Below, in pieces: positions 54,331-55,538 of a DNA stretch of 58,167 nucleotides. Position numbers and translations under genes: made by a program. The notes under the pieces are model-generated. The model worked only from the letters and a program-made list of their open reading frames with translations. It was not told the DNA's origin and searched no databases. This DNA comes from Candidatus Omnitrophota bacterium (GTDB lineage: Bacteria > Omnitrophota > Gorgyraeia > Gygaellales > Profunditerraquicolaceae): positions 1 through 58,167 of the forward strand of contig JAKQWZ010000024.1 of assembly GCA_029561735.1 (NCBI GenBank). The letters run 5' to 3'. How positions within the stretch are numbered: position 1 is the stretch's first letter; each line of letters opens with the position of its first letter.

Positions 54331-54825
54331 CTACCATCTTAACAATGCGACCTTATACCCATCCTGCTGCGGTTTGTCTACCTTATATTCCGGCTTAACA
54401 GACGGCTCATCATAAGGAGATACCGGAAAAGTTGCCACATCAACTACTCCGGCTACACCCCGGGTGAAGCCTGAAGCTATTCCCTGGCCAAGGCCATACG
54501 TAATACCCCAAAACACGTTGTCCTGCTCAGAGACATCGGCTACATCCCGCGGTATATCGGTCCATGAAGTTACCGTATTAAGCACCCCGTCGCCTAATTT
54601 TTCTGCAGGGGTATTTGCCATAGAATCTTCTTTCACAGGATTTCCATTGATCGCCTTCAGGAAATCCGAATTGCCAAGGGCTTTATCCTGCTGTTTCCAT
54701 CCCGGCATATAATAGGTATTAAAGCCTGCCGCTGCCATTGCCTCAGGTTGCGCCCAGGCGCTAATATCTTTTAAGAACAAAACCGTTGCTGCCGCTATAC
54801 ACAAAATCAATAATGCCTTCTTCAT
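54331..54825 (-). CDS. Secreted/membrane protein with a TIGR04073 (exosortase-associated)-like domain
   Basis: Signal peptide; KLGDGVLN..TSW.DIP...G..YG.GQG...G..RG.AG..DVATFP glycine-zipper pattern; AGGGGG SD. Confidence 0.65.
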   Translation of the reverse strand: MKKALLILCIAAATVLFLKDISAWAQPEAMAAAGFNTYYMPGWKQQDKALGNSDFLKAINGNPVKEDSMANTPAEKLGDGVLNTVTSWTDIPRDVADVSEQDNVFWGITYGLGQGIASGFTRGVAGVVDVATFPVSPYDEPSVKPEYKVDKPQQDGYKVALLRW

Positions 54826-54848
54826 CTTACACCCCCTATTTTGCGATA

Positions 54849-54926
54849 ACCATTCGACTCTAAAACCCGGGCTATTAAGCCCGGGGCACCAGCTTGGGGT
54901 TATGCCAAGCGGCGGAGTCGAACCAT
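54849..54926 (-). other. Three-way-junction RNA structure in the 5' leader
   Basis: Outer stem TTCGACTC/GAGTCGAA (54853-54860/54915-54922) encloses hairpins CCCGGGCT/AGCCCGGG (54866-54885) and GCTTGG/CCAAGC (54892-54910). Confidence 0.55.
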
Positions 54927-54971
54927 AAAAAAGGCCCTAATTGTTGCCTGCCTGCGGCAAACCCTTAGGGC
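54927..54971 (-). terminator. Second leader terminator-like hairpin
   Basis: GCCCTAA/TTAGGGC outer stem with inner TTGCC/GGCAA stem, then CTTTTTT on the minus strand. Confidence 0.6.
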
Positions 54972-54986
54972 GCTTTTTGTACTTAC

Positions 54987-55017
54987 AAAAAATAAACCTT
55001 GAGGGACGCTCAAGGTT
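54987..55017 (-). terminator. Riboswitch expression-platform terminator
   Basis: AACCTTGAG-CGTCC-CTCAAGGTT (9-bp stem), then TATTTTTT. Confidence 0.85.
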
Positions 55018-55021
55018 ATCT

Positions 55022-55100
55022 CTTTTGGCAGCCAGGCTGCCCTTTACAGGGCCCTTGGCTTTGCGTCCCAAGATTGCTCTTGGTTTGCCGTTTCAACAGT
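55022..55100 (-). ncRNA. Cyclic di-GMP-I (GEMM-I) riboswitch aptamer
   Basis: Minus strand GGCAAAC-CAAGA-GCAA-TCTTG-GGACGCAAAG-CCA-AGG-GCCCT-GTAA-AGGGC-AGCC-TGGCTGCC. It has the GGCAAAC and GACGCAAAG consensus blocks, a GNRA-capped P2 and a paired P3. Confidence 0.88.
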
Positions 55101-55133
55101 ACTCCAAATTGTCTTTTCTTCTATTCCATTAAG

Positions 55134-55162
55134 ACTATAACATATATCCGGACAATTGTCAA
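55134..55162 (-). promoter_or_regulatory. Sigma70 promoter TTGACA-N17-TATAGT (TG extension) driving the riboswitch leader
   Basis: Minus strand TTGACA attgtccggatatatgt TATAGT, about 35 nt upstream of the aptamer. Confidence 0.8.
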
Positions 55163-55175
55163 GTTCAGGCAGGCA

Positions 55176-55538
55176 TTATCTTATATTATCCAGATAATCC
55201 CATCCCCAACCGACTAGTTTTCCTTTTTCAAGAACAATCGGGATAAGCTCATTTTCATCAATAATACCGTCATCGGTAACAACTTTAACAACATAATAAA
55301 AAACCTCATACATGCTGTCGGAACTGCGCAGCATAGACACGCGAAACGGATTGGCAATCGTCATATTGTTCCAGATAAACGGCTCAGTCCCCATTGTTTC
55401 CAAAACCTGCTCTTTAGTCATTCCGATTGATAATTTTTGCAGGTTTTCGCGGTTGGGTTTAAGCGTCCTATAAAGCGAAATAGTAGTGCACCCGGATATA
55501 AGCAATACTGCCATCAATAAACATATTTTTTTCTTCAT
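55176..55538 (-). CDS. Lipoprotein, DUF3192/BamE-like
   Basis: Lipobox LISGC; NRENLQKLSIGMTKEQVLETMG motif. Confidence 0.72.
   Translation of the reverse strand: MKKKICLLMAVLLISGCTTISLYRTLKPNRENLQKLSIGMTKEQVLETMGTEPFIWNNMTIANPFRVSMLRSSDSMYEVFYYVVKVVTDDGIIDENELIPIVLEKGKLVGWGWDYLDNIR

What the first reader, a model, noticed from the sequence alone, without database searches (positions are those of the whole stretch)
54927..55162. c-di-GMP-I riboswitch whose aptamer is complementary to two tandem terminators
Seen: promoter, aptamer, terminator 1, terminator 2. Aptamer GGGACGC (55063-55069) is complementary to GCGTCCC in the terminator 1 loop (55003-55009), extendable with a 2-nt bulge. Aptamer CGGCAAACC (55082-55090) is complementary to GGTTTGCCG in terminator 2 (54955-54963). 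Established: the first G of GGCAAAC (G20 equivalent) indicates c-di-GMP rather than c-AMP-GMP specificity. Inference: the free aptamer disables both terminators and ligand binding restores both, giving a tighter double-lock OFF switch on an uncharacterised TIGR04073-like surface protein. One aptamer gating two terminators would be an unusual platform.
Basis: partly seen in the sequence, partly recalled or inferred. Interest (0 to 1): 0.7.

Follow-up and report, generated by a model that had tools for sequence, protein, structure and literature searches.

The report
c-di-GMP riboswitch with two gated terminators
This is a genuine c-di-GMP-sensing RNA switch in an uncultured Omnitrophota bacterium, and its one sensor is followed by two stop signals that each carry sequence complementary to the sensor's ligand pocket, a design that recurs across this lineage and probably lets one sensor check each transcript twice.

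Summary

**What is there**
- A consensus promoter (55162-55134, minus strand).
- A class I c-di-GMP aptamer (55099-55023). It scores 70.9 bits on RF01051, with the standard G20 and C92 and an A, not the variant G, at the third ligand-contact position.
- Two intrinsic terminators: T1 (55017-54987) and T2 (54973-54927).
- A TIGR04073 gene (54825-54331).

**Is the complementarity real?**
- Within this locus alone it is weak evidence. Dinucleotide shuffles reach a 7-mer 57% of the time and a 9-mer 6%.
- Relatives settle it. Among 125 related Omnitrophota leaders, 43 have tandem terminators.
- The complement of the aptamer core GGCAAAC occurs in 30 leaders. That is 18.5 times background (p = 2e-28), with covarying flanks.
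- In 12 of the 43 tandem leaders both terminators match the aptamer, against 0 in controls.
- GEMM-I leaders from other phyla largely lack both features.

**Mechanism**
Stepwise folding shows each aptamer-terminator helix is the preferred fold just before that terminator's 3' strand emerges. The best reading is a kinetic OFF switch with two checkpoints.

**Precedent and limits**
A dual terminator has been published for Bacillus thuringiensis Bc1, but there T2 did not respond to ligand. I class this as a new variant of a known kind. The mechanism is inferred; no experiment or RNA-read data were available.

The parts
55134..55162 (-). Sigma-70-type promoter: TTGACA (55162-55157), 17-nt spacer with TG, TATAGT (55139-55134). 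Predicted start near 55127.
   Evidence: 11 of 12 consensus matches with an extended -10 TG. The start site is inferred from spacing.
55100..55127 (-). 5' leader ahead of the aptamer. It contains GACAAUUUGG (55113-55104), one copy of a TGACAAnTTG-like motif repeated in the same position in relatives.
   Evidence: Read directly. Function unknown.
55023..55099 (-). c-di-GMP-I (GEMM-I) aptamer. G20 equivalent at 55089; P2 hairpin CCAAGA-GCAA-UCUUGG at 55083-55068; GGGACGC at 55069-55063; A at 55062 (the third ligand-contact position, A47 in Vc2 numbering); P3; C92 equivalent within GCUGCC.
   Evidence: 70.9 bits RF01051, 66.9 bits RF03167. The alignment shows A where the GGC-variant model has G.
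54987..55017 (-). Terminator 1: stem AACCUUGAG / CUCAAGGUU (55017-55009 and 55003-54995), loop CGUCC, tail UAUUUUUU (54994-54987). GCGUCCC (55009-55003) plus AAGGUU (55000-54995) can pair with aptamer AAUCUUGGGACGC (55075-55063).
   Evidence: An identical T1, loop included, occurs in L102 and L010.
54927..54973 (-). Terminator 2: stem GCCCUAA / UUAGGGC (54971-54965 and 54940-54934), an inner helix GUUUGCC / GGCAAC, and a U6 tail (54932-54927). Its 5' half GCGCCCUAAGGGUUUGCCG (54973-54955) can form 18 bp with aptamer 55090-55082 and 55072-55063.
   Evidence: GTTTGCC in T2 recurs in relatives.
54848..54926 (-). Very stable locus-specific structure between T2 and the ribosome-binding site. An outer stem UUCGACUC / GAGUCGAA encloses two hairpins; the second is CCCGGGC-UUAAUA-GCCCGGG followed by UUUU.
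   Evidence: -42.7 kcal/mol, z = -5.75, 0 of 200 shuffles as stable. No homologue in 234 genomes of the order. Only a sub-threshold Rfam hit. Role unknown.
54331..54836 (-). Ribosome-binding site GGGGG (54836-54832) and the regulated gene (ATG 54825, stop 54331). It encodes a 164-aa secreted protein of the exosortase-associated TIGR04073 family.
   Evidence: 66 bits against a cut-off of 50. 12 of 29 TIGR04073 genes in relatives have a GEMM-I aptamer upstream on the same strand.

Best explanation
A canonical c-di-GMP-I riboswitch acts as a kinetically controlled transcriptional OFF switch on a TIGR04073 surface-protein gene. It uses two intrinsic terminators in series that share one aptamer.

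**Without ligand**
- The two strands that form the floor of the ligand pocket are free: 5' CGGCAAACC and 3' GGGACGC.
- As T1 emerges, its loop and 3' strand can pair with AAUCUUGGGACGC.
- About 45 nt later, the 5' half of T2 can form an 18-bp helix with CGGCAAACC...CUUGGG.CGC. This takes over the segment T1 was using.
- Each helix delays hairpin formation while the polymerase crosses the U-tract, so some transcripts read through.

**With ligand**
- Bound c-di-GMP locks both strands into the aptamer, and both terminators form.
- T2 gives a slow-binding sensor a second decision point, which tightens repression.

**Shown here:** the aptamer class, the two terminator-like hairpins, the complementarities, their enrichment and covariation in relatives, and the order of the predicted folds.

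**Inferred:** ligand binding, actual termination, and the direction and size of the response.
For: - **Aptamer.**. G20 and C92 are intact and the third contact position is A (G20 and C92 roles from PMC6140456).
- **Ligand source.** The genome encodes 8 GGDEF domain matches.
- **Terminators.**
- **Complement lengths, all 144 aptamers analysed.** An exact complement of at least 8 nt to the aptamer occurs in 23 of 115 first terminators (controls 1 and 2) and in 10 of 32 second terminators (controls 1 and 1).
- **Core complement, 125 leaders of this aptamer subtype.** GTTTGCC, the complement of the core GGCAAAC, is in 30 leaders. That is 18.5 times genome background, p = 2e-28. Reversed and sense controls are not enriched.
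- **Not a general terminator feature.** 24 of 203 leader hairpins carry GTTTGCC, against 11 of 4,309 hairpin-plus-T-tract sites genome-wide.
- **Covariation.** Helix extension into the variable flank beats all 2,000 permutations. Aptamer C or U pairs with terminator G or A, Fisher p = 0.011.
- **Tandem leaders.** A complement of at least 7 nt occurs in T1 in 19, in T2 in 24 and in both in 12 of 43. Controls give 2, 4 and 0.
- **Closest orthologue, L268.** T1 loop GAGTTTGCC matches aptamer GGCAAACTC, and T2 loop AGCTTTGC matches GCAAAGCT.
- **Stepwise folding.**
  - AT1 is in the minimum-energy fold at transcript ends 55003-54999.
  - AT2 is in it at 54952-54936.
  - Each switches to the terminator only once the terminator's 3' strand is out.
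  - The same holds for 65 of 77 terminators in relatives, including 23 of 24 T2s.
- **Lineage-specific.** In 79 GEMM-I leaders from other phyla only 2 carry GTTTGCC and 3 have tandem terminators.
Against: - Within this locus alone the matches are not significant: 7-mer p about 0.57, 9-mer p about 0.06.
- At equilibrium the terminator folds win. T1 beats AT1 by 6.8 kcal/mol and T2 beats AT2 by 4.1 kcal/mol. Read-through may therefore be small, and everything depends on kinetics that nearest-neighbour folding cannot show.
- AT1 is favoured only over about 5 nt of transcription, and forming it means opening part of a stable P2 hairpin.
- The T1 loop match GCGUCCC is shared by only two other loci, which could be common descent. 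GCG[CT]CCC is enriched only 6.5-fold (6 occurrences).
- The leaders are not phylogenetically independent, although those with GTTTGCC span about 26 genera.
- In the one studied dual-terminator c-di-GMP-I riboswitch, Bc1, T2 did not respond to ligand (PMC11218506).
Confidence: 0.6

Rival explanations
1. Only T2 is gated through the aptamer complementarity. The T1 loop match to GGGACGC is chance or shared ancestry. T1 is then a partly efficient constitutive attenuator, or is controlled some other way.
For: - A 7-mer complement is expected by chance in 57% of shuffles.
- AT1 is 6.8 kcal/mol worse than T1 and is favoured only briefly.
- GCGTCCC loops occur in just three loci.
- Most T1s in relatives pair with a different aptamer segment, UAAAGGCAA.
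Against: - First terminators in relatives are clearly enriched for aptamer complements in general: 19 of 43 against 2 in the control, and 23 of 115 against 1-2.
- GCG[CT]CCC is 6.5-fold enriched in leaders.
- The pairing extends to 13 bp with a 2-nt bulge.
- An identical T1 loop is kept in a genome of a different family of the order, L010.
Confidence: 0.17
2. T2 is a ligand-independent back-up terminator, as reported for Bc1, and simply lowers basal expression. Its GGUUUGCCG segment is only part of its own inner stem.
For: - Bc1 precedent: T2 stays folded when c-di-GMP is added (PMC11218506).
- T2 is more stable than AT2 at equilibrium.
- GUUUGCC pairs with GGCAAC inside T2.
Against: - GTTTGCC is 18.5-fold enriched in these leaders and rare in other hairpin-plus-T-tract sites.
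- 17 of 43 T2s carry an aptamer complement of at least 8 nt, against 0 in the control.
- The flanks covary with each leader's own aptamer.
- AT2 is the minimum-energy fold for about 20 nt of transcription before T2 is complete.
Confidence: 0.1
3. The complementarity acts after the transcription decision rather than on termination. In read-through mRNA the terminator segments unfold the aptamer. That would stop full-length transcripts from soaking up c-di-GMP, or set mRNA stability or translation.
For: The full-length leader's minimum-energy fold keeps the 18-bp aptamer-T2 helix (318-nt fold). A large extra structure lies between T2 and the ribosome-binding site.
Against: The complements sit specifically inside hairpins followed by U-tracts, positioned to compete with stem formation. 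This role is not exclusive of antitermination.
Confidence: 0.06

Closest known systems
Bc1 c-di-GMP-I riboswitch of Bacillus thuringiensis / B. cereus group (PMC11218506)
   Same: One class I c-di-GMP aptamer followed by two Rho-independent terminators within a single expression platform. The authors call this arrangement rarely seen.
   Different: In Bc1, T1 unfolds as c-di-GMP rises, while T2 stays folded and masks the response. Here both terminators carry conserved complements of the aptamer core, the predicted logic is OFF at both, and the design recurs across many Omnitrophota genera. Sequence relatedness to Bc1 was not tested.
Single-terminator c-di-GMP-I OFF switches such as Cd1 of Clostridioides difficile, and the type aptamer Vc2 of Vibrio cholerae (Rfam RF01051; Cd1 and Vc2 details from my own knowledge)
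   Same: Same aptamer family and ligand-contact nucleotides. Same predicted outcome: more c-di-GMP gives more termination.
   Different: Those have one terminator. Here there are two, and the antiterminator strands come from the 5' core (GGCAAACC) and the central core (GGGACGC) of the aptamer. A sample of 79 GEMM-I leaders from other phyla rarely shows either feature.
Tandem riboswitches with repeated aptamers (for example the Bc3-5 c-di-GMP-I arrays and tandem glycine aptamers; from my own knowledge and PMC12452182)
   Same: Several decision points in one leader, giving tighter or steeper control.
   Different: Those repeat the sensor. Here a single sensor is re-used by two terminators.
c-di-GMP-I-GGC variant (Rfam RF03167) and cGAMP-sensing GEMM-Ib
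   Same: Same fold. cmscan ranks RF03167 first by E-value.
   Different: The window has A, not G, directly after GGGACGC, where the RF03167 consensus has G. It also scores higher on RF01051. It has G, not A, at the G20 position that defines GEMM-Ib (PMC6140456). It is therefore the canonical class.

Membership tests
c-di-GMP-I riboswitch (GEMM-I, Rfam RF01051) | Covariance-model score above the curated gathering score | tested here: met
   70.9 bits against 35, full-length match 1-87.
c-di-GMP-I riboswitch (GEMM-I, Rfam RF01051) | Two-hairpin architecture on a P1 stem, with a GNRA-type loop on the first hairpin | tested here: met
   The alignment shows P2 CCAAGA-GCAA-UCUUGG and P3 present. P1 is weak: U-A pairs and one non-canonical pair are flagged.
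c-di-GMP-I riboswitch (GEMM-I, Rfam RF01051) | Ligand-contact nucleotides G20, A47 and C92 (Vc2 numbering) | tested here: met
   By alignment to the consensus: G at 55089, A at 55062, and C within GCUGCC. G20 and C92 roles are from PMC6140456; the A47 role is from my own knowledge.
c-di-GMP-I riboswitch (GEMM-I, Rfam RF01051) | Binds c-di-GMP | not testable with these tools
   Needs in-line probing, ITC or SHAPE. The genome does encode GGDEF domains.
c-di-GMP-I-GGC variant (Rfam RF03167) | Score above the gathering score | tested here: met
   66.9 bits against 59.
c-di-GMP-I-GGC variant (Rfam RF03167) | G at the ligand-contact position that follows GGGACGC (the middle letter of 'GGC'; this reading of the name is from my own knowledge) | tested here: not met
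   The window has A there (GGGACGC-A-AAGCC), a mismatch to the model consensus. It is not filed under this variant.
Intrinsic (Rho-independent) terminators, two in series | G+C-rich hairpin directly followed by a U-tract | tested here: met
   T1. T2: (-18.9 to -20.9 kcal/mol, U6).
Intrinsic (Rho-independent) terminators, two in series | Transcripts actually end at the U-tracts | not testable with these tools
Dual-terminator expression platform (Bc1 type, PMC11218506) | Two terminators after one aptamer and before the first gene | tested here: met
   Also seen in 43 of 125 related leaders.
Dual-terminator expression platform (Bc1 type, PMC11218506) | Common descent with Bc1 | not tested
   No Bc1 sequence was compared. 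The similarity claimed is architectural only.
TIGR04073 exosortase system-associated protein | NCBIfam score above the curated cut-off | tested here: met
   66 bits against 50, profile positions 2-75 of 75.

The most novel reading that the evidence does not exclude
Omnitrophota have evolved a 'two-checkpoint' riboswitch platform. A single slow-binding c-di-GMP aptamer is interrogated twice on every transcript. Two closely spaced terminators each compete for a strand of the ligand-pocket helix and hand the shared segment from the first antiterminator to the second. This would lengthen the ligand-binding time window and sharpen the OFF response without duplicating the sensor. It would also be the standard control logic for a surface-protein and pilus regulon in these ultra-small bacteria.
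Probability: 0.4. Interest if true: 0.72.

Novelty: new variant of a known kind. Interest (0 to 1): 0.58.

Why it matters
c-di-GMP-I riboswitches bind their ligand slowly and are thought to act under kinetic control. How a single aptamer makes a reliable decision in the short time before the polymerase escapes is therefore a real question.

A platform in which one aptamer gates two successive terminators would be a simple natural answer, and a compact design for synthetic biology.

The comparative signal reported here gives precise, cheap experiments: two predicted stop sites, two defined antiterminator helices, and naturally covarying positions to use for compensatory mutants.

It also links c-di-GMP to TIGR04073 surface proteins in Omnitrophota, a phylum with no cultured genetics.

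Tried and rejected
- **Significance within the locus.** Shuffles show the 7-mer, and largely the 9-mer, could be chance. I therefore moved to comparative tests.
- **Equilibrium antiterminator model.** Rejected. Enforcing AT1 or AT2 costs 6.8 or 4.1 kcal/mol against the minimum-energy fold. Only the stepwise, kinetic picture fits.
- **Filing the aptamer as the GGC variant** because cmscan ranks RF03167 first. Rejected, because the variant-defining G is an A here and RF01051 scores higher.
- **GTTTGCC as a general feature of terminators in this genome.** Rejected: 11 of 4,309 hairpin-plus-T-tract sites carry it.
- **GTTTGCC as a general GEMM-I platform feature.** Rejected: 2 of 79 leaders from other phyla carry it.
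- **The structure between T2 and the gene as a known RNA, a repeat or a tRNA.**
  - No tRNA is called.
  - There is only a 12-nt match to a T-arm in the genome.
  - There is only a sub-threshold Rfam hit, c4-a1b1 at 17.9 against 46.7 bits.
  - There is no homologue in 234 genomes of the order.
- **Literature.** Searches for tandem or two terminators with riboswitches found only Bc1. Nothing was found on TIGR04073 or on Omnitrophota riboswitch platforms.
- **First terminator finder.** It timed out and was rewritten.

Full report
**1. What is in the sequence**

Everything lies on the minus strand.
- A near-consensus promoter, TTGACA-17-TATAGT with an upstream TG, spans 55162-55134.
- About 28 nt downstream of the predicted start, Infernal finds a full-length class I c-di-GMP aptamer at 55099-55023. 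It scores 70.9 bits on RF01051 against a gathering score of 35.
- It also scores 66.9 bits on the variant model RF03167 against 59. cmscan lists RF03167 first by E-value.
- The alignment shows A directly after GGGACGC, where the variant consensus has G. With G at the G20 position and C at the C92 position, this is the canonical class, not the GGC variant or the A20 cGAMP type. The roles of G20 and C92 are as described in PMC6140456.
- The genome carries eight GGDEF domain matches, so the ligand is plausibly made.
- The neighbouring ABC-F gene is 63-75% identical to genes in Candidatus Omnitrophota assemblies.

**2. The expression platform**

- T1 is a 9-bp hairpin (55017-54995) followed by UAUUUUUU.
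- T2 is GCCCUAA...UUAGGGC (54971-54934) with an inner GUUUGCC/GGCAAC helix and a U6 tail.
- The gene (54825-54331) encodes a signal-peptide protein that passes the TIGR04073 cut-off, 66 against 50 bits.

**3. The complementarities**

- Both pairings extend further than reported:
  - T2's 5' half can form 18 bp with CGGCAAACC...CUUGGG.CGC.
  - T1's loop and 3' strand can form 13 bp with AAUCUUGGGACGC, with a 2-nt bulge.
- The two aptamer segments are the two strands that pair with each other at the base of P2, next to the ligand pocket (structure line).
- The two antiterminator helices share nucleotides 55072-55063, so they can only form one after the other.
- Taken alone, this locus proves little. 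In dinucleotide shuffles a 7-mer complement arises 57% of the time and a 9-mer 6%.

**4. Comparative evidence**

*How common the riboswitch is.*
- RF01051 is present in 140 of 151 genomes of the same family, with 1-14 copies each.
- The aptamer subtype seen here (GGCAAAC-N5-GYAA-N5-GGRCGCAAAGC) is in 106 of 204 genomes.
- I fetched 200 regions by coordinate, alongside loci returned by the searches, and analysed 125 distinct leaders of this subtype. Of these, 43 have two terminators before the predicted start codon and 71 have one. The median gap between the two hairpins is 15 nt.

*Enrichment of the aptamer complement.*
- GTTTGCC, the reverse complement of the invariant core GGCAAAC, is in 30 of the 125 leaders. 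That is 18.5 times genome frequency, p = 2e-28.
- Its reverse, and the sense word, are not enriched.
- GTTTGCC is in 24 of 203 leader hairpins, but in only 11 of 4,309 hairpin-plus-T-tract sites across the genome. The odds ratio is 52.

*Covariation.*
- Pairing extends into the variable nucleotides after GGCAAAC more with a leader's own aptamer than with permuted ones; 0 of 2,000 permutations reach the observed value.
- The first variable position covaries. Aptamer C goes with terminator G (5, with 0 A). Aptamer U goes with A (13) or G (6). Fisher p = 0.011.

*Both terminators.*
- In the 43 tandem leaders, an exact complement of at least 7 nt to the aptamer's 5' half is found in T1 in 19, in T2 in 24, and in both in 12. 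A reversed-aptamer control gives 2, 4 and 0.
- Most pairs target overlapping parts of the 5' strand: UAAAGGCAA for T1 and AGGCAAACU for T2.
- The window instead uses the 3' strand for T1 and the 5' strand for T2.
- The closest orthologue, L268 (JBAZGN010000001.1), does the reverse. Its T1 loop GAGTTTGCC matches GGCAAACTC, and its T2 loop AGCTTTGC matches GCAAAGCT.
- A T1 identical to the window's, GCGTCCC loop included, occurs in L102 and L010.

*Specificity to the lineage.*
- Among 79 GEMM-I leaders from other phyla, 2 carry GTTTGCC and 3 have tandem terminators.
- The leaders with GTTTGCC come from 29 genomes in about 26 genera. They are still not fully independent, so the p-values overstate the case.

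**5. How it most likely works**

- At equilibrium the terminators win. Enforcing AT1 costs 6.8 kcal/mol and enforcing AT2 costs 4.1 kcal/mol.
- Folding the transcript at successive lengths gives a different picture.
  - AT1 is in the minimum-energy fold when the transcript ends at 55003-54999.
  - The 18-bp AT2 is in it from 54952 to 54936.
  - Each gives way to its terminator only once that terminator's 3' strand is fully out.
- The same behaviour appears for 65 of 77 aptamer-matching terminators in relatives, including 23 of 24 second terminators.
- This fits a kinetic switch.
  - Without ligand, the pocket strands are free to trap the nascent terminator.
  - With c-di-GMP bound, they are locked away and both hairpins form.
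  - The result is repression at high c-di-GMP.
- T2 lies about 60 nt after the T1 stop. It gives the aptamer extra time to bind and a second chance to stop polymerases that escaped T1.
- Ligand binding, termination and the direction of the response are all inferred.

**6. Rivals**

- T1's match may be chance or common descent, leaving only T2 gated.
- T2 may be an unregulated back-up terminator, as reported for Bc1.
- The pairing may serve to unfold the aptamer in read-through mRNA.

The comparative data argue most strongly against an unregulated T2. They are weakest for the specific T1 pairing in this locus.

**7. Relation to what is known**

- The aptamer is an ordinary member of RF01051.
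- A dual terminator inside one expression platform of a c-di-GMP-I riboswitch has been described for Bc1 of Bacillus thuringiensis. The authors called it rarely seen and found T2 unresponsive to ligand (PMC11218506).
- I found no paper on Omnitrophota platforms or on terminators matching the aptamer core. The library searched is incomplete.
- An earlier AI note from this scan proposed the same idea for another Omnitrophota genome. I treat that as a lead and tested the idea independently here.
- I rate this a new variant of a known kind.

**8. Other observations**

- TIGR04073 genes are a recurrent target: 12 of 29 in relatives have an aptamer within about 750 nt upstream on the same strand.
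- The 79-nt structure at 54926-54848 folds to -42.7 kcal/mol with z = -5.75. It has no homologue in 234 genomes of the order and remains unexplained.

Noticed in passing
window 54848-54926 (-): A very stable three-way structure sits between T2 and the ribosome-binding site (-42.7 kcal/mol, z = -5.75). Its 5' end, GGTTCGACTCCGCCGCTTGGCA, reads like the T-arm and 3' acceptor end of a tRNA. Its last hairpin, CCCGGGC-UUAAUA-GCCCGGG, is followed by UUUU. No homologue was found in 234 genomes of the order, no tRNA is called, and there is only a sub-threshold Rfam hit.
   Followed up: partly
window 55104-55113 (-); L268 484-514; L015, L021, L022 leaders: Between the -10 box and the aptamer, relatives carry 2-5 repeats of a TGACAAnTTG-like motif about 8-11 nt apart. 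The window has one degenerate copy, GACAATTTGG. This could be a protein-binding site or a second promoter's -35 element.
   Followed up: no
L268 706-~975; also L015, L022, L028, L021: A conserved small ORF of about 88 aa, with the motif HRVITMLDR(D/E)ELxFLDKLGKDALFSTGHKLS, is often the first gene after these riboswitches. In L268 it sits between the riboswitch and the TIGR04073 gene. It is absent from the window, where the unexplained structure occupies that position.
   Followed up: no
L351-L380, L268: 12 of 29 TIGR04073 genes in related genomes, plus the closest NCBI orthologue, have a GEMM-I aptamer upstream on the same strand. TIGR04073 proteins therefore look like a standard c-di-GMP riboswitch target in Omnitrophota.
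   Followed up: partly
L012 (G008:C47), L068, L076, L083, L087, L138, L140, L155: Several aptamers in the family read AGCAAAC instead of GGCAAAC, so they have A at the G20 position that marks cGAMP-sensing or bispecific GEMM-Ib RNAs. One of them, L012, precedes a TIGR04073 gene.
   Followed up: no
own genome C65:12749-12840, C52:3083-3173, C60:22892-22970: The three other GEMM-I riboswitches of this genome use different platforms.
- C65: a long-range helix between the aptamer's 5' GCCGATAAGGG and a downstream CCTTTATCGGC, followed by a TCCCAAC...GTTGGGA terminator.
- C52: a terminator whose 5' strand is the aptamer's own 3' strand, which looks like an ON switch.
- C60: a single T1-like terminator ahead of a tiny basic ORF.
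   Followed up: partly
window 55176-55538 (-): The gene just upstream of the riboswitch promoter encodes a 120-aa lipoprotein-like protein matching DUF3192, with a weak BamE-domain match.
   Followed up: no
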